In this document: positions 3,001 to 64,000 of the stretch, piece by piece
Layout of the letters: each line of letters starts with the position of its first letter
How positions within the stretch are numbered: position 1 is the first letter of the stretch
Notes under the pieces: model-generated
What the model saw: the letters and a program-made list of their open reading frames with translations, nothing else
Told to the model about the DNA's origin: nothing
Databases searched by the model: none
Origin: Tubulanus polymorphus
Taxonomy: Eukaryota > Animalia > Nemertea
Length of the DNA: 64,000 nucleotides
Reading direction: 5' to 3'
Assembly: GCF_964204645.1 (NCBI RefSeq)
Contig: NC_134032.1
Span: 14,744,275-14,808,274 of the forward strand
Program-made: the position numbers and the translations under genes

Positions 3001-3038
3001 CTTAGATCATCACGAAGAAAAACCTTTATAATAGTTTA

Positions 3039-5529: not shown

Positions 5530-5562
5530 TTAATAGTTAGTAATTTTAAATTTCTCGTCTAG

Positions 5563-35588: not shown

Positions 35589-38500
35589 TTATTTTCCTTT
35601 TTTGGCCTTGATTTTTCTGTTGTAAAACTCGAGCTCTTTGCCTTCAAGGATGTATCCGTCTGCACGTCCGCTCTGTCCCGGTCGTGACGACACACACGCT
35701 GCGAAAATAAAAATATATTAACGTCAATTTCATCTGGTCAAATAGTCAACCCCCACCTGATGCACAGCCGCATCAGTGATGATTTAGGGGGGTGCAGAGA
35801 CAGGGTGACCATTTTCGGGCCCATTCACAAAATTCCCTGTGAATGAATCAGTGAAATTTCTTGGTTCGAAATCTACGATTCGTTCATCTTTCATTGAATC
35901 AGTTGGGCTGTGAGGTTTATTAGTTGTAGAAGACCGATGAGGTCCTCGCTAGCCGATCGGTCAATCTCTATTCTAAATATGTAGTGTTTTTGTTTATTGG
36001 TAGTCAGAGTAACTATGACAGTTATAGCAGATCTTCGGAAATGAAAGTATTGTCAAAACGACAAATCAAAACCTCACTACGTATTTAAAATTTCATCATT
36101 CTACCAAAACAGGTCAAATTCATTTATATTTCTATCACACTTATGTTTCAATCTCAAAACCACAAATAAATCACTCAAAATTTACTTCAAACATTGACAA
36201 GTTACAAGTTCCTAATGCCCAGTTTTTCACTAATAATCTTCCTCAAAGAATGAGTCCTTGTCTCACAGAGCTAATTAATTCAGGGGGGGGGGGTGCAGTC
36301 TGAACAACAATGGGTTATTATCAGATGAATTTAGTACCTATAAACAGGCTGAGCTTATTTCAATGAAGATATTACTCTGTGTATAAATGAAGTGGTAGTC
36401 AGTGTAACTATGACTTGATATCTTATTAATCTTTGGCGATAAATCAAATGTCAAAACGACAATTTAAACACCTCATTAAAAAGTTGCATCATCATTCTAC
36501 CACTTTACCAGAGTTCCCTGATTGTAAACACTACTTTACCAGAGTTCCCTGATAGTTAACACCACTTTACCAAGGTTCCCTGATTGTGAACACTACAGAG
36601 TTCCCTGATTATACCAAGGTTCCCTGATTGTGAACACTACAGAGTTCCCTGATTATAAATGCTACTTTCTGAGTTCCCTGATTATAAAGACCACTTCACC
36701 TAGGTTCCCTGATTGTGAACACTACAGAGTTCCCTGATTATACTAAGGTTCCCTGATTGTGAACACTGCACAGTTCCCTGATTATAAATGCTACTTTCTG
36801 AGTTCCCTGATTATAAAGACCACTTCACCTAGGTTCCCTGATTGTGAACACTACTGAGTTCCCTGATTATACTAAGGTTCCCTGATTGTGAACACTGCAG
36901 AGTTCCCTGATTATACCAAGGTTCCCTGATTGTGAACACTACAGAGTTCCCTGATTATAAACACTACTTTCTGAGTTCCCTGATTATGAAGACCACTTTA
37001 CCTAGGTTCCCTGATTGTGAACACTACAGAATCCCCTAATTGTAAACAGTACTGATTTTAAAAATACTCACCATAAACTTTACCAGTCGCAAATTGTTCC
37101 TCTAAAGCCGTTTCAACTTTAGCCATTTTCTTACGTTCGTCGTATTTTAGTTGTGTTTTTTTCGAGCGTTTCTTGTTTAAAACGGCTTCTTCTGCTTCGC
37201 TCTATAAAACAATAAATTAATAAATCGGTCAAACATGTACAGTTAGTATTATACCATGATAATTAAACAGTTTCAACAACCCTAGAATTTCAGCCCAAAA
37301 TAGAACTATTTAAATTATTTCGTACTCACAAAATCATAATCTAATCTCTTTAAAGAAATATAGAACTGAACAGTTGCAGACCACACACAAATATCCGCGC
37401 TGCCAGATTTTCAAATCCAGTTCAGTTATGATTTAATTTAGCATCATTTACAAACTAATTCACAAAGGAATTATTGTGAATTAGTGAAATACACATGATG
37501 CAAAATCTAATTACGACATTTATTCAAAGAGCCCAAAATGAAATAACCAAATGACCAAATGTTAATAATTTTCTACTTTAGATCGATTAAAAACACTTTG
37601 AATTGATTTTTACAATTGTCCCCAAGGGGCACTATGACCAGCCTGTCGGCTTTTCATAAACTGGCAAATGATGTCAAAAAACACTCCCTGCGAGTCCAAG
37701 GTCCAAGGGCCTTAGCTCTGGAAACCATGTCATTTAAATTCGCCGCATTTGTATAGTAATAGGCTCAGTCTAAGGCTGGCCTATAAATAATTTCACAGAC
37801 ATAACCGCTATTTATCTCAGATGAGTGGCCACCACCCGCGGCAGACTGAGAGGTAAACCTTGAATACTTACGAGTTTAGCGTGCTTCTTACGGCCGAGAG
37901 GTTGAGCGTAATGCGCCTCGTACCACTGGCGGAACGGAGCCGCGTCAATCTGTACGATCGCTCCTTTAACGAGCGTTTTAGTTCGAACCAGTTCGTTATT
38001 CGTAGCGTTGTAAACAACGTCGATTATACGTGTCTTACGAGCCTGACCTGAAATACAGTTTCAAATATCGATCAGTCGCTGAATAAAATCACAAGTGTGG
38101 CGGCCATTAACAGCCTTAAGTTCTGACTTTCTACAACCAATTTCACAATTTTACATTGTCAAGGTTTACCTTAACAACCAGCCTTAGTTCATCTTAGATC
38201 AATCTAACAACTTAACACCGATATAAGCTAATTTTGATTCTATAGCCAATCTTATTACTTTTGATCAGTCTAAGCTCATTTTAGTTTTATAGTCAATCTA
38301 ACAATTCAAGACCAGTCTCAGCTCATTTAAGTTCTATAACCAATCTAACAACTTTAGACCAGTCTAAATTCATTTTAGATCTATAACCAATCTAACAACT
38401 TAAGACCAGTCTAAGCTCATTTTGGTTCTATAACCAATCTTACACCTTAAGACCAGTCTAAGCTCATTTTAGTTCTATAACCAATCTAACAACTTAAGAA

Positions 38501-40177
38501 AAGTTTGAGCTGATTAAGGATATAGAGCATAACTCAATAATACAACTCATTCTACTAGTGAAGATTGAAGCAATATGTGAAGGTTTTTGATGTTCAAGTT
38601 TCTACAAGTAAAACCAGTCAGTTTATAGATTGAACTGACTGTAACCGAGAAACTACAGAATTTACTATCAGCATCATTCGCACACCACATCAATATAGAA
38701 TCCGATCTGGGTATTAGAGATGCATTTAATACAAAAAGAGGTTTTTGACTAACAGGACTTAGACTTGCAGTCCATGGCAGGTTTTAACAAGACAGTGAAG
38801 GTTTTAGCCTGATACCCGCAGTCCAGTGAATGTTTTACAAAACAGGTCTAGACCGAGTTTCACCAAAAATTTACTGTAAGTTTTTCTTTCAGACAACAAT
38901 CGCAATCAATTCAACCTTAAAAACCTGGGCAGGGTTTCATAGATGCGGAAGCTAAATTTTCCCTGGAAACTTTTTGAAATTCGTCAGTTGTAACCATGGT
39001 TTCTCATTGTTACTATGTTGGTTGTCACCTAGATTGAGGATTAATCCCTTAGGGGTAACTTTGATACTCAGTCTATGAAACCGGGCCCTGGAAATCATAT
39101 CTACAGAACGGTCATCCTTATTACCGAGATGATGTATTTTACCGAGATGAAATGAAATATAACATATTTATTTATTCCTTATCGATTTTAACAATTGACA
39201 TCATATCATGTCAGTAATAAATGCCTGCTGGAGTCATATTTTACATATTTTGTCGGATATTTTTGTAGAAAAATAACTTAACTTTACCGAGATGAGATCG
39301 TCGATCAATCAAATTCAATGAAATTTTATTGCTAACCGAGTTTACGTATTTGAAGTCAAAATTTTTTTAAATAAAAAAATATGTAAAATATGACTAGAAG
39401 GTATTTATTACTGATATAAAATGATTTCAAGTGTTAAAATCGATAAGGAATAAATAAATATGCTATATTTCATTTCGGTTCGTCTCCGTAAAATACGTCA
39501 TCTCGGTAATAAGGATGACCCCTATAGAAAGATATACTTACTTTCTGATCCCCACGAGAAGTTACCGGTATCCAGACGCAGGGCACGGAATTTAGTGTTA
39601 CCGCCACGAGTTCGGACGGTGTGAATTCTCTTGGCTCCGAGTTTGGTGTTAGCAGCGGGTCGTCCCAATTCAAACTTCCTCTTCTTACGGATCGGTTCTC
39701 GACGACCTCCTGTCTTTCTCCTCTTATGCCATTTATCTCTTGAGATACCTGAACGAAAAAAAAATCACAAAATTTATAAATTTGTATTGAGAAAATTATT
39801 TCATCTCATGATGAAGAACAGGGACTTTCAGCCATCAGTTTTCATTCTGAATATATTATCAATCGTTTCTAAAAACATGATTTCAATACAATGTGACAAA
39901 TTATACACAATGATAGGTGAATTAAAAGTTTTTTGCGACAAAATCGCAGCAATCTGAACACGATTTCTAACTATGGGTGACATATTTAGGGAGACGAATT
40001 GCCAGAAAGCGAAGCATTAAATGCATCATTTCACGGACTCGGTCAGAAAAACGATCTATTTCAACGTTTGGATTAGATATAACAGTTTATTCTAATCGAT
40101 ATCTGAATCTTTGATGACGTGAATAGAACTAATTAAAGACGGATTTTATTCGTAAAATAAAACATATCCATACCCAT
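35589..40177 (-). CDS. RPS8: 40S ribosomal protein S8 (eS8), 208 aa
   Basis: Exons 40174-40177, 39542-39748, 37872-38047, 37072-37201 and 35589-35698 total 627 nt. Protein runs [16 protein letters not shown]...[28 protein letters not shown], with canonical splice sites. Confidence 0.97.
35997..36107 (-). ncRNA. SNORD46: Box C/D snoRNA, SNORD46 (U46/U40)-like, copy 1
   Basis: Minus strand: C box ATGATGA (36093-36099), D box CTGA (36004-36007), terminal stem TTGGTAG/CTACCAA. The guide GTCATAGTTACT is complementary to 28S AGUAACUAUGAC, and the D+5 rule gives the A methylated by vertebrate U46. Located in the last RPS8 intron. Confidence 0.88.
36390..36505 (-). ncRNA. SNORD46: Box C/D snoRNA, SNORD46-like, copy 2
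   Basis: C box 36489-36495, D box 36399-36402, 9-bp terminal stem AAGTGGTAG/CTACCACTT, guide GTCATAGTTAC-A-CTGA. Confidence 0.88.
36497..37050. repeat. Minisatellite (GTTCCCTGATT core, ~20-31-bp variants)
   Basis: About 20 reiterated cores in the last RPS8 intron. Confidence 0.9.
37356..37501 (-). ncRNA. Box H/ACA snoRNA candidate (AUA-variant box), RPS8 intron 3
   Basis: Two hairpins with internal pockets: GCATCAT/ATGATGC plus a 12-bp upper stem, and GAACTGGA/TTCAGTTC. H box AAATTA (37434-37439) lies 14 nt after the first pocket; ATA+3 nt at the end; 146 nt in total. Confidence 0.65.
37614..37851 (-). ncRNA. Long structured H/ACA-like RNA candidate, RPS8 intron 3
   Basis: GC-richer island with several hairpins ending in ..CCCTTGGGG-ACA-ATT. 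It contains GTCATAGT, antisense to the 28S helix-69 sequence ACUAUGAC. The architecture is not the standard two-hairpin form. Confidence 0.4.
38190..38515. repeat. ~47-bp tandem repeat
   Basis: CAATCTAACAACTTAAGACCAGTCTAAGCTCATTTTAGTTCTATAAC, about 7 copies. Confidence 0.85.
38588..38723 (-). ncRNA. Box H/ACA snoRNA candidate, RPS8 intron 2
   Basis: Hairpin 1 GCATC..GATGC, H box ATAGTA (38663-38668), hairpin 2 AGTTTCT/AGAAACT with upper stem CAGTCAGTT/AACTGACTG, then ACA+3 nt; 136 nt. Confidence 0.7.
39110..39520. mobile_element. Foldback MITE in RPS8 intron 2
   Basis: Long inverted arms GGTCATCCTTATTACCGAGATGA / TCATCTCGGTAATAAGGATGACC. Confidence 0.8.
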
Positions 40178-41249: not shown

Positions 41250-44200
41250 ATGTCGATACAATATATACCCGACGATATTCAACCAATCACTGACCGCGAG
41301 GATAGTTCATCCGGTCCTCAGCCGGAGGTGGCGCCACCGCAGACTAAATCGCCGGTGTCTGCTTACCGTCATTCGTCGTATCACCATCGACAACATAGAC
41401 ATCGTAACCGTGGTTACAAGACGCGTAAAGCACGGGAGACGTTCGCGGGAAGATGGCCGTTCGGAATCGGGCTGTCGGAGGTCGTCACCGGGTTCATTAT
41501 ATCTATACTCGGTACGTGCTGCCCCCTATAGGTGTATTCTAGCACTAGAAGCTTCGTCTCATTTTGTGTTGCTTCGTTTTTTTTCAGGAATCGTTGAATT
41601 TTTCGTCATTCCGGTCCTCGACGACCAGGAGAATTTAACACTTGGGTTTTCACACGAGAATTGTTACGGACTTGGACTGTGGACCGGTCCTTTAGTAAGT
41701 AGATTTTACTCTTACCCGAGTCCGGCCCAGTGTGGCTCCCGGTCCCAGAGTCGAAACTTGAAATTATTGATGAAACTAATTATACTATTTCAGCTCATCA
41801 TAACTGGATGTTTGGCAATTCGCGCTTCAATAAGTAAAAGAGCCAGTACAGTAAGTATGGTCCTTACTTAAAAACCCCCAGTGCCAGATGCGACCAGGGG
41901 ATCCAGGTCCACAGTTTTAGTTCAATTTCATTTTAAATGAATTAATACAGTTAATTACTTTACTATTGTTAATTTTGGAACTAGGCACTGAACTTGGTTC
42001 CACAGTTATGATTTGAGATTAGACTCGGGAGTTAACCTTTGATTTGAGTTCTATGCCCTAACTCACTATTGTGGAACTGGATCCCCGGCCTGTGCCGAGA
42101 TATTTGGAGGGGTAGTTCTACTTCAAGACAAAGGGCCATTTTTTACTGTGAATAGGGACATTTACAAGGGCTAAGGGCCTGAATCCTGCAGGCCTACAAT
42201 CCACTGGGCACTCAATCTAACATTCCAATTAATTATTTGATGTTACTGGTTTATCATAGATCTATAACTGGTTCTGGTTAAGTTCAGTGACGGTATTTTT
42301 ATACGCTTGTGGAATCGGACTTCTTATATATGGATACAGTTCGAACTGGACTCCCATCGAACAGGTAAGAAACTATTCACACCCTGCAGGCTAACGTTAC
42401 ATAGCAGGGTATTTAAGATGTTTCAATAATATGTTTTATTGATTTATTTTCTAGAGTAAATCGTTGTACACGATCAATAATATGTTTTATTGATTTATTT
42501 TCTAGAGTAAATCGTTGTACACGATCAATAATATGTTTTATTGATTTATTTTCTAGAGTAAATCGTTGTACACGGTCAATAATATGTTTTATTGATTTAT
42601 TTTCTAGAGTAAATCGTTGTACATGATCAATAATATGTTTTATTGATTTATTTTCTAGAGTAAATCGTTGTACACGATCAATAATATGTTTTATTGATTT
42701 ATTTTCTAGAGTAAATCGTTGTACATGATCAATAATATGTTTTATTGATTTATTTTCTAGAGTAAATCGTTGTACATGATCAATAATATGTTTTATTGAT
42801 TTATTTTCTAGAGTAAATCGTTGTACACGATCAATAATATGTTTTATTGATTTATTTTCTAGAGTAAATCGTTGTACACGATCAATAATATGTTTTATTG
42901 ATTTATTTTCTAGAGTAAATCGTTGTACACGATCAATAATATGTTTTATTGATTTATTTTCTAGAGTAAATCGTTGTACACGATCAATAATATGTTTTAT
43001 TGATTTATTTTCTAGAGTAAATCGTTGTACATGATCAATAATATGTTTTATTGATTTATTTTCTAGAGTAAATCGTTGTACATGATCAATAATATGTTTT
43101 ATTGATTTATTTTCTAGAGTAAATCGTTGTACACGATCAATAATATGTTTTATTGATTTATTTTCTAGAGTAAATCGTTGTACACGATCAATAATATGTT
43201 TTATTGATTTATTTTCTAGAGTAAATCGTTGTGCACGATCAATAATATGTTTTATTGATTTATTTTCTAGAGTAAATCGTTGTACACGATCAATAATATG
43301 TTTTATTGATTTATTTTCTAGAGTAAATCGTTGTACACGATCAATAATATGTTTTATTGATTTATTTTCTAGAGTAAATCGTTGTACACGATCAATAATA
43401 TGTTTTATTGATTTATTTAAATCGTTGTACACGATCAATAACATGTTTTATTGATTTATTTTCTAGAGTAAATCGTTGTACACGGTTCACACGTTGATGT
43501 CGGTTACGATATTTATAGGACTGCTCCTCGCCGTTGTCTGCTTCTTCAATTATTACGACGACGTTTTCTTCGGAGAATTACAACTGTTTAAAAAACTAGT
43601 CAAATGTTGTATGCCTTGTTGCTGTGTTGGGGTGAGTCTAAAAAGGTATTTGTGTGACATTATTAGTCCGATTTGCTCGCTGATATAATATGCAGCTTCC
43701 TTCATCAGTGTAAGCTTTGGAACATTCTTCAGGGCTCCTACTACGACTCCTTGATTCCTTAAAAACACCTACGCAACTTCTTCCATCAGCTTTGGAACAT
43801 TCTTCAGGGCTCCTACGACCCCTTGATTAATGATAATTAATAATAATTAGTGCTTATATAGCGCCTTTCCAAAGAATGCTCAAAGCGCTGTCACTCAATT
43901 ATTACCCAGCTTCTGTTACCAATCCAGTATATTCTTACTCTCCCTGGGGAGATGCAACACCGATACGCTGCAGAGCGATCAAGGCGTCGTCAGCCAGTAG
44001 CAATTGTGAATTAATGCCTTGCCTAAGGACACTACAGCACAGCCGGGGTTCGTACACACAACCTCCCGATTGGGGGGCGAGCACTCTACCACTAAGCCAC
44101 ACTGCTCCACAGTGATTACATTATAAAAACTCCTTCTATTTAGAAAATGCTTTTAAAGGTGCTTGAAACTCCTTAAATTTGAACAAAATGCCGGAAACTC

Positions 44201-46572: not shown

Positions 46573-46913
46573 CATCCTCCCTCTGCAGGGACTCGAACCT
46601 GATGGCATCGCTACACTCAGCCACGGCACGAACCCTTGCATCAGTAGACCGGGTGCGCAGGTACATGCGCAGCTTTCCGAACGAAAACTGGCAGCACCAA
46701 TCAGATTGCTCGTTGTATAATCGTTGAGGCAAATTTCAAGGAAGAACTATAAATGGGAAAACCCGGGATAAAATAAAACGGGATTTCTGATTGGCTAAAA
46801 ATCACATCATCTGAACTGCGCATGTATCTGCGCACACGGTCGATTATGGCAGGGTTTCGTGCCGTGGCAATCTCGATGCCATCAGGTTCGAATCCCTGCC
46901 GGGGGAGGATGTG
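46573..46913. mobile_element. Mutator-like MITE (9-bp TSD); truncated copy at ~54105-54372
   Basis: ~60-bp TIRs CATCCTCCC..CAGGGA.TCGAACCTGATGGCATCG; flanks TAGAACAGT at 46564-46572 and 46914-46922. Confidence 0.8.
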
Positions 46914-47710
46914 TAGAACAGTAAGCCAAAGTTCAGTTTCACGAAAAAGTTTAACTCAAATTTTTGGTGTAGTCACTATTGGTTATTTCATGTTTCAATT
47001 CAAACTTAACCGTTTTAGGCTTAAACTTTTTCGTGAAACCGGGCCCAGTTCTCTGATTCGGACATACTGAATAGATTATACGATAGAACTGACTAACATG
47101 TTCAGAAAACCTAATTCGCACTGGTGTCGTTTTAAATGGTCTGAGGTAAGGATAGGAAAATACCAGTACAAAGTCAGAAAAATGATAGATTTCCTTTTTC
47201 TCAGATTTAGTCAACTCCGACTTGGCCGTATCCAAAACACTAGATTCACTGTATATACAAATTGAAAAAGTCGAAAAATCGAAATTTATTTATCTAATAG
47301 AAAATTAAAAGGCAATGTTTCGAACTCTTAGAGAACATTGTCTGGCATCGATAATGATTTATATAACTTATAGTTTTAGTGCAATAAAATTTAAGGGACC
47401 GTGTCATCAGCAGTTAATGTCAGTCAATGTTTGAATGTACTTTGTTCGTATTCAAAAACTAAAAAGCTCTAGTCATCTCAATTGTGATTTCAATGATGAA
47501 ATTGATAGCATGCTTGCACTGTATTAGACCTTACAGCTGTTTAAATCTATTCATTCATATTTGGCCTGATAGCTCTCGTTTTAAATTTGAATAGAGTTCA
47601 ATCAACATTTTTAAGAATGAACTGAATTTAAATGTTAAACTGATAACCTTGATTTACAATCCGTCTTAAGTGGAGAATCCCACAATAATGGAAAGATAAT
47701 ATAAAGTCCG

Positions 47711-48498
47711 AAAATGTTTCCTTGAGCTAGTGTAGTTAATTTGACGTTTCGAGTATATCCTAATAGTCATCTTCAGGAATACTGTATTCCTCAAGCTGGT
47801 GTAGTTAATTTGACGTTTCGAGTATATCCTAATAGTCATCTTCAGGAATACTGTATTCTACAAGCTAGTGTAGTTTATTCGACGTTTCGACTATATCCTT
47901 ATAGTCATCTTCAGGAATACTGTATTCCTCGAGCTAGTGTAGTTTATTCAACGTTTCGACTTTATCCTAATAGTCATCTTCAGGAATACTGTATTCCTTG
48001 AGCTAGTGTAGTTTATTCAACTTTTCGACTTTATCCTAATAGTCATCTTCAGAAATACTGTATTCCTTGAGCTAGTGTAGTTTATTTTAACATTTCTACT
48101 ATATCCTAATAGTCATCTTCAGGAATACTGTATTCCTTGAGCTAGGAACGTTGAATAAACTACACTAGGCTAGTGTAGTTTATTCAACGTTTCGACTTTA
48201 TCCTACTAGTCATCTTCAGGAATACTGTATTCCTTGAGCTAGTGTAGTTTATTCAACGTTTCGACTTTATCCTAATAGTCATCTTCAGGAATACTTTATT
48301 CATTGAGCTAGTGTAGTTTATTCAACGTTTCGACTTTATCCTAATAGTCATCTTCAGGAATACTGTATTCCTTGAGCTAGTGTAGTTTATTCAACGTTTC
48401 GACTATATCCTAATAGTCATCTTCAGGAATACTGTATTCCTTGAGCTAGTGTAGTTTATTCAACGTTTCGACTATATGCATGTAGTCATCTTCAGGAA
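47711..48498 (-). ncRNA. Tandem array of 11 x 69-nt minimal type I hammerhead ribozyme motifs (Penelope-like)
   Basis: Minus unit: UAUUC-CUGAAGA-U-GACUAU(UAGGAU)AUAGUC-GAAAC-GUU/GUC-GAAUA, giving a 5-bp stem I, a 6-bp stem II and a loopless palindromic stem III ACGU. Confidence 0.75.
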
Positions 48499-49073
48499 AG
48501 TACTGAGGTACAACAGAAATAATCAAAACTCCACTTTATATTATTTTTTCATTATCATTGTAGGATTCTACTATTGTCATCACAACATGGATATAGCATA
48601 ATCATTGACTAGGGTTTAATTAGTAAAGTTTCTTCTTTTTATGAAACTGAAAAAAAAACTTCTATATTTTTCATCTGGCGTCCAGTCACCCCTCCCCAAC
48701 CTTCTCCCACTCATCAGTAGGAGGCCTCAGTTTTCTGTCTGTAAATATTATTAAAATTCCCAATTTTTGCAATAATATGAATGTGATGAGTCTGAAATGG
48801 TAAAGAAATTAAACGCGACTGAAATTCAATTCCGATCGATATTGATGTTCCCGCGTTATGTTCTGAATAATTTTTGTAAAATAAAATATATTAAGAATAT
48901 TAAACAGTAGTGCACTGTATGATTTGCAAATCATTTGTTTATTCGTTGGTTTTTTTAATTGTTAATCATTATTCATTATAAGGATCTATTTACTGGATAT
49001 TTGCAGCTGGTCCATATCAGATGAGGAGAGCATATAATGCGCGATAAATTGTGGTGATATACATAGGGACCTG

Positions 49074-49280
49074 TACGGAAGCCCCTAGGTGACATATGAG
49101 ATTATTTTGTTCATAAATTCGACTTATTAAGTCGAATTTCGGCATAATAAGTCGAATTTCGAGATAATAAGTCGAATTTCGAGATAATAAGTCGAATTTC
49201 GTGTTAATTAAGTCGAAATTCGACTTAATAAGTCAAAATTGTGAAAAAATTTTCTCGTATGTCACCTAGGGGCTTCCGTA
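49074..49280. mobile_element. TACGGAAGCCCC-TIR MITE, short copy
   Basis: Same TIRs as 17900-18452; TSD GACCTG. Confidence 0.9.
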
Positions 49281-49372
49281 GACCTGCCAGTCAAAAACTA
49301 AATTTTTTCGATGACCTATTACAACAACCACAAGCAAACAAAATTTAAAACGTTGACCTAACCCTACGTTTG

Positions 49373-49804
49373 TACGGAAGCCCCTAGGTGACATACGAGA
49401 AAGTTTTTTCACAATTTCGACTTATTAAGTCGAATTTCGACATAATAAGTCGAATTTCGACTTAATAAGTCGAATTTCGACATAATAAGTCGAATTTCGG
49501 GTTAATTAAGTCGAAATTCGACATAAGTCGAATTTCGTGTTAATTAAGTCGAATTTCGAGTTTTATTTTCATGTCGAATTTCGACTTATTAAGTCGAAAT
49601 TCGACTTAATAAACACGAAATTCGACTTATTAAGTCGAAATTCGACTTAATTAACACGAAATTCGACTTATTATGTCGAAATTCGACTTTCTAAGTCAAA
49701 ATTCGACTTATTAAGTCGAAATTCGACTTATTATGTCGAAATTCGACTTAATAAGTCAAAATTATGAAAAAAATTATCTCATATGTCACCTAGGGGCTTC
49801 CGTA
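49373..49804. mobile_element. TACGGAAGCCCC-TIR MITE, long copy
   Basis: Same TIRs; TSD CGTTTG; opposite orientation to the 17900 copy. Confidence 0.9.
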
Positions 49805-51009
49805 CGTTTGACTCCCGCCTAATACAAAATAATCCATCAATATGATAGCCCTATAATTGATACAATTGCTCATTCTACTTCAACCAGGGAGACGAGTCAG
49901 GGAATTTCGAAGAACATTTTTCCTCCGCGCCATCGGGACAAAATTCTCGTTAGAGATTTTTGATCTGTAGACACAGTGACAGACAGTTAACAAGACTTGT
50001 CCTACAGACTTCATCTTGCAATATACACATCATGAAAACAAATTCCGTGATCTAGGCCGCAGAAACGGTCTGCAATCTTTAGAATTATACCAACTGCTCA
50101 GACAAGCCAATGAGTACCATGCAGGTCACTCGATGTTATTTCAAACTTATAAAAGCAGTTTCATATTAGATAGAAAAACTTTCGAGGCAACCACTCGAGA
50201 GTCTGGAGTGGTCAGTTTTATTTCATTGGTTAAGTTTTGGAGCATTGCGTTAGTAGGTTTTTCGCTTTTACTGTCTGTTTTCTATCAAGTTTATTATTTA
50301 ATGCCAAGGTATATATAGAGGCGTGTAGAGTCGAGCCCCGTGTTTATATTCCATTTGGAACAGTCGCCAGCGGAACAGTCCGTTAGTGGGCACTCGCAGC
50401 GAACTCGACCCTGGCAAGCCTGGTTTACGGTCGACAGCTGGTTCGCGATTTACGGTGAAGGTCGTTGGAAGAGGGCATTTAGTGAATGTCAAACTCGAAG
50501 CGTCGAATTGTAAATTTCGGTAAATAAAATTAATTAGAATGATATCTCACCTTTTTTTCTCAACGAAATGATTATAAGACAATTCTCTCTGATCGCTTCA
50601 ATAATCAGTGACCTGATCATCGTGGGAATACGGTTTAAATCGGCGGTGGTTATTAGAGACGGGTCGGGAGTCGAGAGTCCGAGTGTGTACACAATTGCCT
50701 CCTCGCTAGTAGTGTTATAAGAGACCTTAACAATAAGAAGGCCTCCTTTTTGAGTATTGTTTTATCTTTATGCTTTTTGGGTTTTCTTGACCAACTCAAA
50801 CTGATGTATGAGTAACTCGGGACCCAGAGTTTCAGTATTACTAACCTCTACTACACTAACCCTCACCTGACAATATACGGTATTACAAAATGACTTGATG
50901 ACCACCATACCTGCTCCCGATAGCCTCGCAAATCGATTGTTGCCTCAGAATTGAAATTGTACAAATTTATACCAGTTTTCTCACTATTTTCAGCTTCTAA
51001 GAATTAACC

Positions 51010-54000
51010 ATGTCCGGATCGGAGATCGTCAATTACATGGACTTCACGATAGACGACGTGAAAAACGGCTCCAATTTGGAAAGTCCCGTTAAAAAGAAAG
51101 GGAAATTCGACCCGCACGGATTGAGTTTAAGCGAAATCGCGGAGATGCTCGGCTGCGACCTCGACAGCGTTAAATTCGCGCGTTACATGGACAACCACGA
51201 TCGATTGAAACATTTGAGGAACGAGTATTACTATCCGAAAAATAAAACTCTAATTGGAAGTAAGTTTTTTGAGATAATCCGGATGAAACTTGCGAGAAAA
51301 ACCAAAAATGTTTCCTTGAGCGAGTAGTTTTTAAATTAGAACGTTATGACTTTATCCTAATTCAGTAAACAACTTTATCCTCAGTCAACACCCAATATAC
51401 CGCCCACATCTCGGTGCAGAATGATTTTGTTGGTATAGAGAGTATGGCGGTATATCAGAGGTGTTTTACTATGTATTTGTATAGAGATGTACATCGAGAA
51501 AACCTGGTGGTCGGTGGGGGTGGCGGTACATGGGAGGGTGGTATATCGGGGGTGTTTTATTATGTATTTGTATAGAGATGTACATCGAGAAAACCTGGCT
51601 GTAGGCGGGGGTGGCGGTAAATTGGAGGGCGGTATATCGGGGGTGTTTTACTATGTATTTGTATAGAGATGTACATTGAGAAAACCTGGCAGGGGTGGCG
51701 GTAAATGGGAGGGTGGTATATCGGGGGTTGACTGTAGTCTTCTTCAGGAATGTGATATTTTTCAGGCTAATTGTTCTTCTTTATGTACTGTGGTATTTAA
51801 CCGTATAAAATTTCGGGTTCGGACAATTCCTCGTGAAAACTGGTCCTCGATATTGATGAAGATGTGATTGAATTTCGAGCGATAAATCTTTGTTTTTCAT
51901 TTAATTATTTTATTAGTTGATTTATGTAAAGTTGACCTGGAAGAGGACAGTGTATATTTCTGCGGTAATTCACTGGGATTGCAGCCTCGAGGTACAAACT
52001 ACTACATTCAAAAAGAGTTGGATAAATGGGCAAAAATGTAAGTTCAAGGATGATTAATAATAATAATAATTATTATTATAATAATGATGTTAATTTGTTG
52101 ATATAGCGTTATGATATTTAGTAATCAAAATGCTTTATATTAACGTTACAATACAGGGTCCAGTTCCACAGTTCCCAGCTAAGATTTGACTCTGGGTTAA
52201 CTCATTGAAAATGAACTAACTTTAACTCAGAGTTAACTCTAACTCACGACTGTGGAACTGGGTCCTGTAGAACTCGCTTGTTTCGGATCACCCAGGACTG
52301 GAAAATAGTGTCCGAATTAAACAAAATCCGAATTATGCGCTCTCATTTGAAAACGAATAACCTAGAGGGGACCGGAGTGTTAGTCCGAAATAAATGAAAA
52401 ACCCGAATAAAACCGATCCGAATTAAGCGAGTGGTAATTAATAATCATAAGATTGTTAAAATACCAGGACCCAGTTCCACAGTTGTGAGTTAGAGTTAAC
52501 TCTGAACTCAGGATCCAGTTCTACAGTTGTGAGTTAGAGTTAACTCTGAACTCAGGATCCAGTTCCACAGTTGTGAGTTATGAGTTAACTCCGAACTCAG
52601 GATCCAGTTCCACACTCTGGATCCAGTTCCACAGTTGTGAGTTAGAGTTAACTCTGAACTACAGGACCCAGTTCCACAGTTGTGAGTTAGAGTTAACTCT
52701 TGAGTTAAAATTAGTTCATTTTCGATGAGTTAACTCAGGGTCAAATCTTAACTCGGAACTGTGGAACTGGACCCAGTCTGGGAGACCGGTGACAAAATGC
52801 TGTTTTAAAGCAATAATTGCGGTGACATTGTTAGGTAAAGGATGCGTTCTATTGATCTGAAAATCGTTGATTATTTTGTAGCGGAGTTCAAGGTCACGTG
52901 AACGGTGATTTGCCGTGGGCTCACTGCGACGAAAAAATCAACGCTCGAGTTGCTAGGCTTGTCGGTAAGATAACCGTGAAAACGTTGAGAATTATTCTGC
53001 GGAACCAGGTTCACCTGCACTAATTAGTGTAGGCGCATTATAGTCTAATGTCTATTTCAACTTGACTCGAGAGCACATCGGGTGGCCTAGTTTTGGTGAC
53101 AAATACCTGATAAAGGTCTTTTTTAATTAGAACCAGAAAGGACTGTCAGCTGACCAAAAACATTGATTTTTAATCCATTTTAAACTGTATTGAAGGATAT
53201 CCAAAAAGTCTTCATTGAAAGCGTTTGAATTAGGAAATGTGACTCCATGATTTTTAAGTTAAACAATGTGTTTCTATGCCTACAGACCCAGCTCTAGTTG
53301 GTAGGCATGGAAACATATTGTTTTTGAGATAAACTATGTATTTCAGGTGGAAACTCAGATGAAGTTCAGTTAATGAATGGCTTAACAGTAAATTTGCATT
53401 TCTTACTCGTAAGTTTTCTCCCCAGAAAATTTTAAACCATTTTGAATTGGGGAATTTATTGCATATCTGGTGGGTGCATGCTGTGATGATATATGGATTC
53501 GGAAGCCTGAAAATTCAGTTTGCAGTTCATTGTAAATGAACTAATTTGACAAAGGACCACCTACTGCTCGTCACGCCATCTAGTGGGATAGCTCGTGTTA
53601 CGGGTTCTCATTTGACTGTTTTGTTTTTCTGTTTTCTGCGCGATAGATATCATTTTATCGACCAACACCTCAAAGACACAAGATTCTGCTGGAATCCAAG
53701 GCTTTTCCATCGGACCATGTAAGTTTTTTTTCTGACCGATTGGCTGCTTACAAATATCTGTATAAGTTCTGATGTCTAGAATTCTAAAATGATCATGGCG
53801 TCTTAAAGGCACCACCTAAAAGGAAAACGCAGTAAATGTAACTTACAACATTTCTAACCTTATAGAATTATCTATTAACGAAATATCTCGTAGAAATGTT
53901 GTTTATGCGATGTGTTACAGTATGCAATAGAATCACAGATTCGTCTTCACGGTTTCGATCCCGAATCAAGTATGATCTGTTTAGAACCGAGACAGGTATG

Positions 54001-57000
54001 TGAGCTTTGACTCGTCATTGTGTTTTAGAGCAAGCGTTCGTAGCTTGTGAATTGTTAACTCGTCCACTGACCATCCAACTATATTTAACGAACCCCTGTC
54101 ACACTAGACCGGGTGCGCAGGTACATGCGCAGCTTTCCGAACGAAAACTGGCGGCACCAATCAGATTGCTCGTTGTATAATCGCTGAGGTAAATTTCAAG
54201 GAAGAACTATAAATGGGGAAAACCCGGGCTAAAATAAAACGGGATTTCTGATTGGCTAAAAATCACATCATCTGAACTGCGCATGTATCTGCACACACGG
54301 TCGATTATGGCAGGGTTTCGTGCCGTGGCAATCTCGATGCCATCAGGTTCGAATCCCTGCCGGGGGAGGATGCAAATAACTATATTATTGTAATCGAAAG
54401 CATCAATGAAATTAATAAGATCACATTGATCAAATAATTAGATAATAGGGATAATGTCTTATTTCAAGATCATGATCTCAAGGTGATAGGTTCAGTTGCA
54501 GTTCACGGTTCTAGGTTCAGTTACAGCTTGGAGTAATCATTTGACTACTCAATGATTACTCCAAATGATTACTCCAAGGTTACACAATGCACCCTTCCTT
54601 AATCATGTTGATCTGCTGATTCCACCGAGTCCACTTACTCTTTACTATATTTCTGTTTAGGGTGAGTTTACTCTTCGTACCGAAGATATCCTCGCGAGGA
54701 TCGCTAGCGAGGGCGATTCTATAGCCGTTGTATGTTTAAGCGGTGTGCAGTATTACACCGGACAGTTGTTCGACATGGCGGCCATTACTAAAGCCGGTCA
54801 AGAAAAGGTAACGCGTTTTACCTTGAAAAATAACACGTATATTGCTTAATATTGTCGACAATAGATTATAGCCCCGATATGTTGATGACGTCGTGCATAT
54901 CCTTTCGAAAAGTAATTATTAAAATTTATCGAAAATGAAAAAAGAATTGTGAAATATTAGACGAGAAGATACACAATATCCGTGTATGATGATGACGAGA
55001 GAAATCTCACAATAACGAAGCCAAGATTGAAAAATTCTATATCGGAATGATTGTATTTGAGGAGCGACATTTCGGCTAACAACTGTTAGCCATCATCAGG
55101 CGTACTGATGATGGCTAACAGTTGTTAGCCGAAATGTCGCTCCTCAAATAAAATCTTGGCTTCGTTATTGTGGGATTTCTCTCGTAATTATGAAATATAT
55201 TCTATTACAAAATAAACGCCAGAATTCACAATTCTGATAGTCATTTTGAAACGCTATAATCGATTACATAGTAGTGAACATCGATTAACACAGAACCTGT
55301 TAAATAACGCATATTAGGCATCAGTGTATATAAACATTATTGAAACGGTTTTTATGGCGTCAAAAAAGTTAAGAGTTCTACTATAAGCCACACGACTGAG
55401 AAATTGGCTCATATTTACGTTTCCATCATACGCATGTGAATGTCTGTTTTGTAATATTCTGTACGTGTGAATTATTTCAGGGTTGCTATGTTGGATTTGA
55501 TCTGGCTCATGCGGTCGGAAACGTAGAAATTCATCTTCATGATTGGAACGTTGATTTTGCCTGTTGGTGTACGTACAAGGTTTGTATCATTCATTCATTC
55601 TCCTTTTGCAGTGGTAACATTAAAAAAAAAAAAGTCTAAAATGTTTCCTTGAGCTAGTGTAGTTTATTCAACATTTCGATTTTACCCTAATACTAGTCAT
55701 CTTCAGGAATACTGTATTCCTTGAGCAAGTGTAGTTTATTCAACTTTTGACTATATCCTAATACTCATCTTCAGGAATAATTTATTCCTTCAGCTAGTGT
55801 AGTTTATTCAACTTTTGACTATATCCTAATAGTCATCTTCAGGAATAATTTATTCCTTCAGCTAGTGTAGTTTATTCAACGTTTCGATTTTATCCTAATA
55901 TTCATCTTCAGGAATACTGTATTCCTTGAGCTAGTGTAGTTTATTCAACGTTTCGACTATATCCTAATAGTCATCTTCAGGAATACTGTATTCCTTGAGC
56001 TAGTGTAGTTTATTCAACGTTTCGACTATATCCTAATAGTCATCTTCGGGAATACTGTATTCTTTGAGCTAGTGTAGTTTATCCAACGTTTGACTATATC
56101 CTAATAGTCATCTTCGGGAATACTGTATTCTTTGAGCTAGTGTAGTTTATCCAACGTTTGACTATATCCTAATAGTCATCTTCGGGAATACTGTATTCTT
56201 TGAGCTAGTGTAGTTTATCCAACGTTTGACTATATCCTAATAGTCATCTTCAGAAATACTGTATTCCTTGAGCTAGTGTAGTTTATTCAACATTTCGACT
56301 ATATCCTAATAGTCATCTTCAGGAATACTGTATTCCTTGAGCTAGTGTAGTTTATTCAACGTTTTGACTATATCCTAATAGTCATCTTCAGGAACACTGA
56401 TGTTGTCCTCATTATAGCCATTGATGAAACACTCTTAGTCCGTGTTCACTCAGAGTAAAAAGAGTCTAAATGATTCCTTTAGCTACGTTGTGCAACTTTC
56501 ATCCATCTATTCAGCTGAGTGATTGTTATGTCTGAATTTCAGTATTTGAATGCCAGTGCCGGTGGAATAGCCGGAGCCTTCCTTCACGAGAGACACATGC
56601 ACAATGACTTTCCGAAGTTGTTAGGTTGGTGGGGCCATGAAGGCAAGACCAGATTCGTTATGGACAATGGTACAGTATATAATAATTCCTATTTGCCTTA
56701 GATTCAAAGTCTTTGATACATCGTCGTCACATTACTGAAGTCATCTCTATTTTTTAGTCCCAATTTATATTTCTAATTCAATTTACTAAGTGTAAGTCAT
56801 CATTTGGATAAGTCGTCACATTACTGAAGTCATCTCTATTTTTGAGTCCCAATTTCTATTTCTAATTCAATTTACTAAGTGTAGGTCATCATTTGGATAA
56901 GTCGTCACATGACTAAAGTCATCTCTATTTTCAAGTCCCAATTTGTGTACGTAATTCACAAAGTCGTCTAAGTTGTCATTCAGATGCCAAGTCATCAACA

Positions 57001-58914
57001 TGATGAACGTCACAACAATGACGACTTTGAATGTCACCAGTATTTTTACTCAACGCGTTTTAAACATTATTTTACAGATTTGAAATTATCTCCTGGTATC
57101 GACGGATACCGGGTTTCAAACCCGCCGCCATTGTTGGTCTGTCCGTTAATAGCAAGCATAGATGTAAGTAGTCACATGACATCGGTTTAAACCTTTCCCG
57201 ACCATTTGCTTTATTTCTGGGTCTGAGTCTTATACTTTTGCGCGTGGAGCCCAATCCCAGGTCCCGGTGTGGCTGTATAAAAGGTGTCCTGCTGGGTCCA
57301 GTTCCACAGTTCTGAGTTAACTCTAAGATAACTCATTGAAAATGAACTGATTTTAACTCTTACACTAACTCACAACTGTTGAACTGGGCCCTGGGGGTTT
57401 AGACCTCTGTCTCAGTGAGGTGATGTTTCCCCTTAAAGATATAAGACAACATTAAAAATACGTACGTCAATGATGTGCTTCATTGAAATGAGAGCACGCG
57501 TGTTAACACTATTCATTGGATACCCGAACCCAGCCCGCTTGCCGGGGGAAATTCATCACTGTTGAAAAATGTTAAATGGCTTAGATTTGTACTACGGGCC
57601 ATTCGCCAAGTGTCTACGCCTACATGGGGAGGGCAGGTGGTGGTAGAGGCCACTCTCTGCATTTACGAGGGAAGGAGGGAAGGTTTGAAATGAAAGACTC
57701 CCGTGAATTTACCACCTATATCTCTCTCTTTCGATTTTCTTCAGATTTTTGAAAAGACCAGTATGGAAGCATTACGCGCGAAGTCGAAACAATTGACCGG
57801 ATATTTAGAGATATTGTTGCTGCAGAAGTTTCCGAAGCCGTCGTCGTCGTCGCCGGGGGAGACGATTGATAATAAACCGTACATCGAGATTATCACGCCT
57901 TCCGATCCCGATCAGAGAGGATGTCAATTATCGGTGAAATTCTCCGTTCCGATAAAAAACGTCTTCAAAGAATTGGTGAAACGTGGAGTCGTGGTATGTA
58001 CTATACACTGAGAACTCCTGCCCCCCTAATCTCTATTTCAACCTGACTTGAGAGCATTCCAGGTGGCCTAGCTCAGTCAGTTTTGGTAGTACATACCCGA
58101 TAAATGTCTTAGTAGGACCAGAAAGGACGGGCAGTCGACCTTAATCATCATTTTTTAATCCATTTGAAACTGTATTGAATATCCAAAAAGTCTTCACTGA
58201 AAGGGGTTAAATGAAGAGAAGTGACTCCATGATTTGAAAGTTTAACAATATGTTTCCATGCCTACGTATCAAGTTTCAGTTGGTAGGCACGGAGACATAT
58301 TGTTAAACTTTCAAATCATGGAGTCTCTTTTCTCTCAGGAACCCCTCTCAATGCAGATTTTTTGGATATTCTTCAATACAGTTTCAAATGGATTAAAAAA
58401 TGATGATTTAGGTCGACTGCCAATGGATTCTGGTCCTATTAAGACCTTTATCAGGTATGTGCTACTAAAAATGAGCGACCTAGGCCACCCGGAATGCTCT
58501 CAAGTCAGGTTGAAATAGACATTAGGAGACACATCCTCCTTCAACGGCGATTCCATGAGACTCTGTCACAGTACAAACCCCTGTCCAAGTACAAAAGGAA
58601 ACATCTGAACATCTCCGTCAAAGGGATTCAAACCCCTGCCCTAATAGACATCTCTTCCCTAGTAGCGATTCAAATCCCAGCCCTAGACCCATCCTCCGTC
58701 TGCTGGTATTGATTTTCTGTTGATATATATATTTCAGTGTGATGAAAGAGAACCGGATGTAATTCGATTGGCTCCAACTCCGATGTACAATAAATTTGAA
58801 GATGTTTATAGATTTATTCATTTACTCGAACATTCTCTGGCAGACGCCGCAAAATATCCACCGCAGAAAACAACAACAACAACAACGCCATCTACTACTA
58901 ATCAGCTGAACTAA
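51010..58914 (+). CDS. KYNU: Kynureninase (PLP-dependent), 515 aa
   Basis: Exons 51010-51259, 51917-52037, 52882-52964, 53347-53408, 53647-53718, 53921-53995, 54661-54807, 55481-55579, 56543-56669, 57078-57163, 57745-57993 and 58738-58914 total 1548 nt. Motifs: [40 protein letters not shown] (PLP lysine), GWWGH, SNPP, QRGCQLS. Confidence 0.96.
51382..51734. mobile_element. Tc1/mariner-type MITE with ~89-bp internal repeats
   Basis: CAGTCAAC.CC..ATATACC / GGTATATCGGGGGTTGACTG-TA. Confidence 0.65.
54995..55185. mobile_element. Penelope-like inverted terminal remnant with hammerhead cores on both strands
   Basis: Inverted repeat centred on 55100-55104; each arm reads CTGATGA-T-GGCTAAC(AGTT)GTTAGCC-GAAA-TGTC. 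Confidence 0.7.
55638..56399 (-). ncRNA. Second array of 11 x 69-nt hammerhead motifs, antisense within KYNU intron 8
   Basis: Same unit and same flanks as 47711-48498. Several units have core mutations (CCGAAGA, loss of the G in GAAA). Confidence 0.72.
58025..58526. mobile_element. ~500-bp foldback MITE; partial copy at ~53045-53335
   Basis: The arms are reverse complements over nearly the whole length. Confidence 0.85.
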
Positions 58915-62246: not shown

Positions 62247-63115
62247 AGACTCCGCTCAAGTCGGATCTTTTGACTAGAGAGTGATATCTGAGTTGGATGG
62301 TACAGTAGACTCCGCTCAAGTCGGATCTTTTGACTTGAAAGTGATATCTGAGTTGGATGGTACAGTAGACTCCGCTCAAGTCGGATCTTTTGGCTTGAGA
62401 GTGATATCTGAGTTGGATGGTACAGTAGACTCCGCTCAAGTCAGATCTTTTGACTTGAAAGTGATAGGCCTATCTGAGTTGGATGGTACAGTAGACTCCG
62501 CTCAAGTCGGATCTTTTGACTAGAGAGTGATATCTGAGTTGGATGATACAGTAGACTCCGCTCAAGTCTGATCTTTTGGCTTGAGAGTGATATCTGAGTT
62601 GGATGGTACAGTAGACTCCGCTCAAGTCTGATCTTTTGGCTTGAGAGTGATATCTGAGTTGGATGGTACAGTAGACTCCGCTCAAGTCAGATCTTTTGAC
62701 TTGAGAGTGATATCTGAGTTGGATGGTACATTAGACTCCGCTCAAGTCGGATCTTTTGACTTGAGAGTGATATCTGAGTTGGACGGTACAGTAGATTCTG
62801 CTCAAATCAGATCTTTTGACTTGAGAGTGATATCTGAGTTGGATGGTACAGTAGACTCCACTCAAGTCGGATCTTTTGACTTGAAAGTGATATCTGAGTT
62901 GGATGGTACAGTAAACTCCGCTCAAGTCAGATCTTATGACTTGAGAGTGATATCCGAGTTGGATGATACATTAGACTCAACTCAAGTCTGATCTTTTGAC
63001 TAGAGAGTGATATCTGAGTTGGATGGTACAATAGACTCTGTTCAAGTCTGATCTTTTGACTTGAGAGTGATATCTGAGTAGGATGGTACAGTAGACTCCG
63101 CTCAAGTCGGATCAT
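62247..63115. repeat. 60-bp tandem repeat (~14 units)
   Basis: Unit AGACTCCGCTCAAGTCGGATCTTTTGACTTGAGAGTGATATCTGAGTTGGATGGTACAGT, with an internal hairpin CTCAAGTC/GACTTGAG. Confidence 0.95.
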
Positions 63116-64000
63116 TTTAGAACATAAAAGTTCTTTTTCTATAATCCTGTCATCAGATTTTGAATACTAGTTCAGCATCAACAGTTATGTCTGTTAGATT
63201 TGAATCTGAATGGTTGATTTTTGAATTTATGGACGTCCCTAGGAGTTAATTCGGTCGTGGATTTTTTTTACCATAATGTTCATCATTGTTTATTCGAAAT
63301 AAAAAAAAAAAAATGCAGATGTCATGCAAATCAAAGAATTATTTTACCCTGGGTCTACAAATGAACCCGGGTTTTTTTTTTATACCAGGGTATAAGTCAC
63401 GTCCAATAAAACATGTTCAATAATTCATGTGAAAAACTAGATTATCATGTGAACCATATTGCAAAGAGAATTGGAAATCTCCTATGAAACACTGCAGGTA
63501 TGGATCGGTATAGGCTAGTGAAATGTGAGGTATATTGCTAAGTCATAATAATTACAGTTCAATTAACTGGAATGAAGTCAGGTAATACCATACACCGAGC
63601 GAGAATCACTCTCCTCCTCACGAACTCTGTGTACCTCCTCGCGAACTACTTGTTCCTCGCAAACTCCTTGTTCCTCGCGAACTCCCTGCTCCTCCTCCAC
63701 ATGCACTCCCTGCACTTCTCTCCCCTCCCTATGAACTGTTGATGCTCTTCTATGTAGATTTTATCTAATAATCATCGTGTTTTTCATTTGACACAAGTTC
63801 ATTGATTTTTCTCTTCACTCTGATTTTCTGATTCATATATCATCATCACGCTCTCCCTCTCCCTGTCCCTCTCCCTCTCCCCTCTCCCTCTCCCTGTCCC
63901 TCTCCCCGTCTCCCCCCTCTCCTCCCTCTCCTCTCCCCTCTCCCCCCAATTTCAACCAACTTAAGACTAATTAATTAGGTTTATTAGAAACATGGCAGAC

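What the first reader, a model, noticed from the sequence alone, without database searches (positions are those of the whole stretch)
47711..48498. Satellite made of 69-nt minimal hammerhead ribozymes (possible ultra-small retrozyme)
Seen: on the minus strand, units of this 11-copy array have the hammerhead core (CUGAAGA, stem II, GAAA; a few units degenerate), a 5-bp stem I (UAUUC/GAAUA), a GUU or GUC cleavage triplet and a loopless palindromic stem III (ACGU). Known: Penelope-like elements carry such minimal hammerheads, which fold as dimers, and metazoan non-LTR retrozymes are tandem hammerhead repeats of roughly 150-300 nt that yield circular RNA. Inference: neighbouring units could complete each other's stem III and release 69-nt monomers, far smaller than typical retrozymes. 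A junction palindrome (GGAAUAC-A-GUAUUCC) may compete with stem I and act as a switch or inhibitor.
Basis: partly seen in the sequence, partly recalled or inferred. Interest (0 to 1): 0.78.

Follow-up and report, generated by a model that had tools for sequence, protein, structure and literature searches.

The report
Muted hammerhead array in Penelope mini-element
This repeat is one copy of a common family of short animal repeats that carry the shape of a self-cutting RNA; it was likely written into the genome by a Penelope-type jumping gene and then lengthened as DNA, and its unusually short unit is predicted to fold so that it rarely cuts itself.

Summary
In detail: 11 tandem 69-nt units on the minus strand carry a minimal type I hammerhead of the Penelope (PLE) kind; 6 of 11 are intact. 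It is not a lone satellite. A second 11-unit array lies 7 kb away, and raw reads give about 1,100-1,600 ribozyme copies in at least three subfamilies, with some 300-550 69-nt junctions. The array sits inside a small element: family leader, 11 units, fixed 3' end, 34-nt tail, and an inverted copy of that tail at the 5' end, which is the published PLE insertion signature. Release of 69-nt circles is unlikely. The junction hairpin is predicted to bury stem I and core C3/U4. Broken units were duplicated locally. Core CpG sites, including G12, decay across genomic copies. Arrays end in non-unit sequence and mix unit variants. Nothing here tests cleavage or transcription, and no parent PLE was found (no genome held). 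A 69-nt unit is inside the published 51-972 bp range, and this scan noted similar short arrays in other genomes. Verdict: new member of a known kind; the shared 69-nt cassette in two subfamilies is the open point.

The parts
47711..48500 (-). Array 1: 11 tandem units of 69 nt, each a minimal type I hammerhead plus a 25-nt linker; units 2, 3, 4, 5, 8 and 9 (from the 5' end of the minus strand) intact
48388..48431 (-). Representative intact hammerhead (unit 2): stem I 5' strand 48431-48427, C3 at 48426, extra U, 6-bp stem II, GAAA, loopless ACGU, U17 at 48393, predicted cut between 48393 and 48392, stem I 3' strand 48392-48388
   Evidence: sequence
48425..48441 (.). Junction palindrome (one example; one per internal junction). 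Predicted 7-bp hairpin that takes the 5' strand of stem I and C3/U4
48141..48168 (+). 28-nt fold-back insertion in unit 5, holding a perfect 22-nt inverted copy of the adjacent unit sequence
47708..47721 (-). Family 3' end after the last unit, not part of the 69-nt unit; the same GGAAACATTTT stands at the end of array 2 and of the solo copy
   Evidence: loose ends
47674..47707 (-). 34-nt extension behind the 3' end, likely the optional PLE-type tail; about 6-9 copies by read depth
48533..48569 (+). Inverted copy of the tail just 5' of the element (31 of 34 letters match, one 3-nt indel); both arms stop at the same letter
48501..48525 (-). Leader B: matches the commonest sequence read upstream of the ribozyme in genomic reads at 20 of 25 letters (compared by eye; that consensus has agreement of only 0.58-0.60)
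   Evidence: against loose ends
55620..56394 (-). Array 2: 11 units of the same family with the same junction, 2 of 11 pass the descriptor, A-type 3' end and T run; between exons of a plus-strand kynureninase gene (first exon assigned by recalled likeness)
56395..56446 (-). Leader A: 52 nt shared with about 90-140 genomic copies; part of a longer parent unit of about 145 nt, some in tandem
56447..56515 (-). Older, degenerate copy of ribozyme, linker and long 3' end, in register upstream of leader A
51297..51361 (-). Degenerate solo copy of the family with the same 3' end

Best explanation
The array is the inside of a small non-coding mobile element that is likely derived from the end repeat of a Penelope-like retrotransposon and was likely written into the genome by that transposon's enzyme from a long, uncut, linear RNA; the units were then duplicated locally as DNA, and the 69-nt junction is predicted to hold the ribozyme off. 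Steps: (1) shown: a family of over a thousand minimal hammerheads in at least three subfamilies that share the ribozyme and a fixed 3' end but differ in leader and linker; (2) inferred: a parent unit of about 145 nt lost its long end and leader, giving the 69-nt unit with a new palindromic junction; (3) inferred: a PLE reverse transcriptase-endonuclease starts copying at a fixed site behind the ribozyme on both target strands, which gives the fixed end, the tail and the short inverted arm; (4) shown: neighbouring units share mutations, including ones that break the core, so the arrays also grew as DNA; (5) predicted: the multimer rarely cleaves, which would let whole arrays survive as template.
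For: Second array with the same unit and 3' end, and a solo copy, within 9 kb. Read depth 9,714 on the core against about 8 on unique flank; 2,604 reads cross the 69-nt back-joint; leader A depth about 830; 131 reads show a longer tandem joint. 2,042 and 1,532 reads leave the unit just behind stem I into another linker that ends in the same CATTTTCGGAC and T run. Tail and inverted tail flank array 1; 199 reads from 100 starts join two ribozymes head to head at the 5' end, and a similar joint stands in 2 contigs of another run. These match the PLE marks in PMC8557442 (partial tandems, inverted 5' copy, 30-40 bp tail) and PMC11167929 (internal start of reverse transcription, both strands extended, ribozyme cleavage not needed in vitro). 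Derived letters shared by neighbours: 24 against 8.8 expected, 1 of 5,000 permutations. One non-CpG variant in stem II is mixed through both arrays (5 of 11 and 2 of 11 units) and stands in 16% of reads, which one circle rolled once would not give. Double hammerhead is 21.4, 15.7 and 21.0 kcal/mol uphill in three natural dimers against 10-11.5 with shuffled linkers (0, 6 and 0 of 150 shuffles as high); C3 is paired at 0.95 or more in 11 of 11 units. G12 is not G in 12.6% of 9,583 reads; C11.1, C15.2 and G16.2 vary by 6-11%.
Against: No parent PLE was seen: 0 of 39 tested ORFs beside look-alike ribozymes hit RT or GIY-YIG, and the window holds only one weak RT scrap. No target-site duplication found. 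Folding is nearest-neighbour only: a unit with leader A and no palindrome also has C3 paired at 0.98, two of 11 units free C3 when pairing span is capped at 150 nt, and a PLE hammerhead cleaved only with its protein (PMC11167929), so 'off' in silico may be 'on' in a particle. In the 22 window units the core took 4 of 53 mutation events over 11 of 69 sites (P = 0.06), a weak lean towards protection. Arrays 1 and 2 carry the same junction between different leaders and ends, which needs exchange between subfamilies and also fits a mobile 69-nt circle. Head-to-head joints in short reads can be library fold-backs, and the contigs of run X2 showed none. The tail's 6-9 copies could be a duplicated flank.
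Confidence: 0.64

Rival explanations
1. DNA-only spread: the 69-nt repeat arose once in a dead PLE end and reached other copies by gene conversion or DNA circles; only the single-unit parents ever moved through RNA.
For: Local DNA duplication is shown. The same junction stands between different leaders and ends. Three copies lie within 9 kb. Array 2 is in register with an older copy.
Against: Some 300-550 junctions genome-wide and two arrays of 11 units with fixed ends; the tail and inverted arm of array 1 fit one insertion event, though they could predate the expansion.
Confidence: 0.17
2. Active ultra-small retrozyme: neighbours form double hammerheads, with protein help melting the hairpin, release 69-nt monomers that circularise, and a PLE enzyme rolls round them into arrays at homologous sites.
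For: Intact neighbours exist (units 2-5 and 8-9); the double hammerhead is nested and drawable; units equal to the consensus stand in both arrays; a mobile circle explains one junction in two subfamilies; minimal hammerheads cleave weakly as dimers and trimers (PMC4209133).
Against: Arrays start before stem I and end in non-unit sequence, not at the cut; they mix the same variants; the active fold is 16-21 kcal/mol uphill; 5 of 6 intact units have GUU, where GUC and GUA are the fast triplets (PMC3138052); the predicted circle folds at only -3.5 kcal/mol and the linear monomer no better than shuffles (z -0.74), unlike the highly paired retrozyme circles (PMC7229834).
Confidence: 0.11
3. A DNA transposon passenger: a MITE or Helentron-type element with an internal tandem array that happens to hold a captured hammerhead.
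For: Inverted repeats flank array 1; the 3' end runs into T; the window is rich in MITE-like repeats.
Against: Array 2 has no such inverted repeat; leaders differ between copies; the ribozyme, not the termini, is the part shared by all subfamilies.
Confidence: 0.05
4. A host-kept regulatory element, such as an antisense RNA switch on the kynureninase locus.
For: All four copies in the window lie on the minus strand, antisense to the plus-strand gene.
Against: Decay of units, hundreds of dispersed relatives, and n = 4 for the strand bias; avoidance of the sense strand would give the same pattern.
Confidence: 0.03

Closest known systems
Minimal type I hammerheads in pseudo-LTRs of Penelope-like elements (Cervera and de la Pena 2014, PMC4209133; text parts 1-2 of 4 read)
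   Same: Intact core, extra nucleotide between 9 and 10.1, G10.1-C11.1 pair, long stem II, 5-bp stem I, loopless palindromic 15.2-16.2, over a thousand dispersed copies in several subfamilies, opposite-strand pairs.
   Different: There most motifs are single or kilobases apart; here a subset forms 69-nt tandems with a junction predicted to block stem I. No RT/GIY-YIG parent seen here.
Animal non-LTR retrozymes (Cervera and de la Pena 2020, PMC7229834, part 2 of 6 and passages; Li, Clavereau and Pollet 2026, bioRxiv 10.64898/2026.07.22.740005, parts 1-3 of 5)
   Same: Non-coding tandem repeats with a type I hammerhead in each unit, low GC, dispersed arrays, likely PLE origin. It meets the 2026 working definition (two consecutive units with a complete motif); 69 bp is inside its 51-972 bp range.
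   Different: The circRNA-producing ones are 170-400 nt, highly self-paired, mostly with canonical ribozymes. Here the ribozyme is minimal, the circle is predicted to be poorly paired, and arrays have a non-unit leader and 3' end. In the 2026 study 8 of 9 dimers did not cleave.
PLE insertion structure (Craig et al. 2021, PMC8557442, passages; Frangieh et al. 2024, PMC11167929, parts 1-2 of 4) and non-autonomous PLEs such as MRC1
   Same: Partial tandem, fixed 3' end a short way behind the ribozyme, 30-40 bp tail, inverted 5' arm, AT-rich site, no clear target-site duplication.
   Different: No ORF at all; the tandem unit is only ribozyme plus 25 nt.

Membership tests
PLE-type minimal type I hammerhead | Core CUGANGA ... 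GAAA ... UH with stem II | tested here: met
   6 of 11 units pass, 0 hits in 120 shuffles
PLE-type minimal type I hammerhead | Extra nucleotide between 9 and 10.1, G10.1-C11.1 pair, palindromic 15.2-16.2 without loop | tested here: met
   Sequence; features listed in PMC4209133
PLE-type minimal type I hammerhead | Stem I kept by compensatory change among families | tested here: met
   48 of 86 metagenome matches with H17 form 4+ pairs, against at most 1 when slid (39 are one family). In 3 window units plus 7 hand-picked of 119 loci, 4 of 5 pairs change on both sides
PLE-type minimal type I hammerhead | Self-cleavage as a dimer | not testable with these tools
   Folding predicts the active form is disfavoured
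Rfam hammerhead families | Covariance-model score | tested here: not met
   No hammerhead family hit; expected for a loopless form (inference)
Non-LTR retrozyme | Non-coding tandem repeat, complete type I motif in two or more consecutive units, many loci | tested here: met
   Units 2-5 and 8-9; 300-550 junctions
Non-LTR retrozyme | Expressed as monomeric linear and circular RNA | not testable with these tools
   No raw RNA reads were available to lay
Non-LTR retrozyme | Monomer forms a highly self-paired circle | tested here: not met
   Circular fold -3.5 kcal/mol; linear z -0.74
Non-LTR retrozyme | Target-site duplication (when present) | tested here: inconclusive
   Only 6-nt chance matches in 60 nt of flank
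Non-autonomous Penelope-like element | Fixed 3' end with optional 30-40 bp tail | tested here: met
   Same end in 3 of 3 window copies, loose-end consensuses, 34-nt extension in about 6-9 copies; that it is a tail and not a duplicated flank is inferred
Non-autonomous Penelope-like element | Inverted copy adjacent to the 5' end | tested here: met
   Array 1: 48533-48569 against 47674-47707; absent in array 2; head-to-head joints in 199 reads
Non-autonomous Penelope-like element | Sequence shared with the pLTR of an RT + GIY-YIG element in the same genome | not testable with these tools
   No genome held; none in the window or fetched loci
MITE or Helentron-associated element | Common termini or sub-terminal inverted repeats in all copies | tested here: not met
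   Arrays 1 and 2 differ at the 5' end; array 2 lacks flanking inverted repeats; n = 2

The most novel reading that the evidence does not exclude
The 69-nt unit is a mobile cassette in its own right: a protein-gated ribozyme whose junction hairpin keeps it silent until the Penelope protein binds, whereupon 69-nt circles are cut out and rolled into existing copies of different subfamilies. It would be among the smallest self-processing RNA replicons and a parasite of a parasite of a PLE.
Probability: 0.1. Interest if true: 0.8.

Novelty: new member of a known kind. Interest (0 to 1): 0.38.

Why it matters
How animal retrozymes move, and what the hammerhead does for Penelope elements, are open questions. 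This family shows the Penelope insertion marks on a ribozyme array and offers a natural pair for the test: the same ribozyme in a 145-nt parent unit without the hairpin and in a 69-nt unit with it. If the short arrays spread while silent, cleavage and circles are not needed for movement, in line with the in vitro result for an anole PLE. If they cut only with the PLE protein, the hairpin is a gate and the 69-nt circle is a new minimal replicon.

Tried and rejected
No whole genome is held, so copy numbers come from read depth in one run (about 12% of it read, another individual) and are rough. Sequencing-run search: no RNA holder listed; the one run guessed to be RNA laid nothing; neither bears on expression. 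Run X7 (organism B) gave one 99-nt contig at depth 2.5 with the 69-nt joint: too little to claim a second species. Rfam: no hammerhead hit; the miRNA hits are hairpin noise from a neighbouring MITE. Family-specific patterns found nothing in viral or prokaryotic contigs. Pfam on 39 of 58 same-strand ORFs of 130+ aa in those loci: no RT or GIY-YIG. Pfam on window ORFs of 68+ aa (102, 15): one weak RVT_1 scrap at 3341-3592 whose motif looks LINE-like (recalled). No tRNA head; the bacterial promoter scan is not informative for an animal. The ORF at 49980-50318 was not identified, so whether array 1 is intronic is unknown. Atlas and PDB searches did not give the taxon or confirm the first kynureninase exon. 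Lunse 2017 and Arkhipova 2017 are not held and are known only through reviews. Supplements of the 2026 preprint, which list family lengths, could not be seen. Searches for this family or a comparably short PLE-hammerhead minisatellite found only the 2026 preprint's size range.

Full report
1. Observation. The minus strand of 47711-48500 holds 11 hammerhead cores 69 nt apart; one unit is 97 nt because of a 28-nt fold-back and one is 70 nt. The consensus unit has a 5-bp stem I, CUGAAGA, an extra U, a stem II of up to 6 pairs, GAAA, loopless ACGU and U or C at position 17 (GUU 8 of 11, GUC 3 of 11). A descriptor passes units 2, 3, 4, 5, 8 and 9, two units of a second array, and nothing else in the window or in 120 shuffles. 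Rfam does not score it. The extra nucleotide, the G10.1-C11.1 pair and the palindromic 15.2-16.2 are the marks of PLE minimal hammerheads in PMC4209133. The same core stands in 119 metagenome loci with other stem I sequences that still pair: 48 of 86 matches with H17 form 4 or more pairs against at most 1 when slid, and 4 of 5 pairs change on both sides in a hand-picked alignment. The motif is real.

2. It is a family, not one satellite. A second 11-unit array lies at 55.6-56.4 kb and a decayed solo copy at 51297-51361; all three end in the same GGAAACATTTT, which is not part of the unit. Array 2 lies between exons of a kynureninase gene, on the opposite strand (first exon assigned from memory). 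Raw genomic reads of the same species label give depth 9,714 on the core against about 8 on unique flank, that is about 1,100-1,600 copies at 80% likeness; 2,604 reads cross the 69-nt back-joint, and junction depth and joint counts give some 300-550 tandem junctions. These are rough: one run, another individual, an edge effect at the junction. The reads show at least three subfamilies. One has a 52-nt leader A (about 90-140 copies) and a long 3' end, making a unit of about 145 nt that is sometimes tandem (131 reads). Another shares the ribozyme from stem I to stem I but leaves it into a different linker (2,042 and 1,532 loose ends) and ends in the same CATTTTCGGAC and T run. So the ribozyme is the part that subfamilies keep while leader and linker change, which points to selection on it when the family diversified (inference). 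Earlier unchecked notes of this scan call the genome a ribbon worm; I did not test that.

3. Anatomy of the insertion. Read 5' to 3' on the minus strand, array 1 is leader B (48525-48501, 20 of 25 letters like the commonest upstream sequence in reads, by eye), 11 units, the family 3' end, and a 34-nt extension (47707-47674). An inverted copy of that extension stands at 48533-48569, right beside the leader (31 of 34 letters, one 3-nt indel), and both arms stop at the same letter. The extension has depth up to about 65 against 3-9, and 19 reads from 12 starts join it to the unit. 199 reads from 100 starts join two ribozymes head to head at the 5' side; contigs of one other run show a like joint and those of a third do not. 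PMC8557442 (passages) lists partial tandems, an inverted 5' copy and a 30-40 bp tail as PLE marks. PMC11167929 shows that a PLE enzyme extends both target strands, starts at two fixed internal sites behind the ribozyme, uses uncut RNA, and that its ribozyme cuts only with the protein. Array 1 fits two extensions from one start site, one long and one short (inference). Array 2 has leader A and an A-type end and follows an older decayed copy in register. No target-site duplication was found, and no parent PLE was seen.

4. How the arrays grew. Neighbouring units share derived letters 24 times against 8.8 expected (1 of 5,000 permutations). Runs with U4C, with loss of G12, or with broken stems were copied, so local DNA duplication went on without regard to catalysis. 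One non-CpG stem II variant is mixed through both arrays (5 of 11, 2 of 11) and stands in 16% of reads; a single circle rolled once would give uniform arrays. Across reads, G12, the general base (PMC6155905), is not G in 12.6% of 9,583; C11.1, C15.2 and G16.2 vary by 6-11%, mostly CpG transitions; C17 is 11% at 80% likeness and 5.5% at 88%, so the faster GUC may be ancestral. Only 40 of 152 variant rows were shown, and the reference letter at G12 was itself the mutant. Against this, the 22 window units have 4 of 53 events in 11 core sites of 69 (P = 0.06), so slight protection of the non-CpG core is not excluded. Neutral decay of inserted copies is expected for any transposon and says nothing on source copies.

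5. Can it cut? The junction hairpin (-5.8 kcal/mol in most units) takes the 5' strand of stem I and C3/U4. Forcing the double hammerhead costs 21.4, 15.7 and 21.0 kcal/mol in three natural dimers against 10.3, 11.5 and 10.2 with shuffled linkers (0, 6, 0 of 150 as high); the middle dimer has a mutated junction. C3 is paired at 0.95 or more in 11 of 11 units of the whole array. The local hairpin is as stable in 66 of 2,000 linker shuffles. Limits: a leader-A unit without the palindrome is also predicted paired (0.98), two units free C3 at a 150-nt span cap, and tertiary contacts and proteins are not modelled. The released monomer folds no better than shuffles and the circle only at -3.5 kcal/mol. 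The palindrome may be a by-product: recombination at AGGAA between the linker and a head-to-head junction would give this unit (untested).

6. Comparison. It works like a non-autonomous PLE and meets the working definition of a non-LTR retrozyme in bioRxiv 10.64898/2026.07.22.740005, which reports units of 51-972 bp, ties them to PLE end repeats, proposes local tandem amplification and found 8 of 9 dimers inactive. It fails the self-paired circle feature of the expressed retrozymes of PMC7229834; expression is untested. This scan noted short minimal-hammerhead arrays and PLE-style ends in other genomes. What sets this one apart is that the short unit is itself dispersed in hundreds of junctions and stands, with one junction, inside two different subfamilies.

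7. Verdict. New member of a known kind, interest 0.38. Best explanation 0.64; DNA-only spread 0.17; active 69-nt circle 0.11; DNA transposon 0.05; host function 0.03. The most novel reading left open, a protein-gated 69-nt circle that invades sister subfamilies, has probability 0.1 and would deserve 0.8.

Noticed in passing
window 55620-56515: Second 11-unit array of the same family, with leader A and an older decayed copy in register, antisense within a kynureninase gene.
   Followed up: yes
window 48141-48168: Fold-back insertion in unit 5: a perfect 22-nt inverted copy centred on a CTAG, likely a template switch.
   Followed up: partly
window 23506-28691 and 1-608: 238-241 bp satellite (about 22 copies) with strong strand skew; a second piece at the window start, followed by the same flank (821-883 = 28904-28966; 3035-3310 = 31065-31340), so a segmental duplication.
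   Followed up: no
window 49072-49280, 49371-49805, 17899-18452: MITE-like elements with long inverted ends and an internal 20-21 bp palindromic repeat; source of the spurious Rfam miRNA hits.
   Followed up: no
window 46573-46911 and 54088-54372: 285-bp element with 100-bp inverted ends, two copies 96% alike.
   Followed up: no
window 42423-43484, 62247-63118, 56723-56958, 12238-12499: Other tandem arrays (51, 60 and 89 bp units); the descriptor found no hammerhead in them.
   Followed up: partly
window 5550-9179, 15117-16511, 37815-39764, 51010-58911: Host gene exons: formyltetrahydrofolate cyclo-ligase with an RRM-like end, a PITH-domain gene, an S8e-family gene on the minus strand, kynureninase.
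   Followed up: partly
window 3341-3592: Weak reverse-transcriptase scrap (RVT_1, E 6e-4), LINE-like by recalled motif, not evidently a PLE.
   Followed up: partly
window 49980-50318: 112-codon open frame upstream of kynureninase with no Pfam or atlas match; unclear if coding.
   Followed up: partly
L046 359-392 and 999-1032; L006, L011, L036 and others: Two minimal hammerheads on opposite strands 600 nt apart in L046. 30 of 119 matches have G after the ACGU and seem to use a helix III two letters longer, like the Drosophila virilis variant.
   Followed up: no
reads laid on 56322-56620: One 99-nt contig of organism B holds the 69-nt joint at depth 2.5; a relative or contamination.
   Followed up: no
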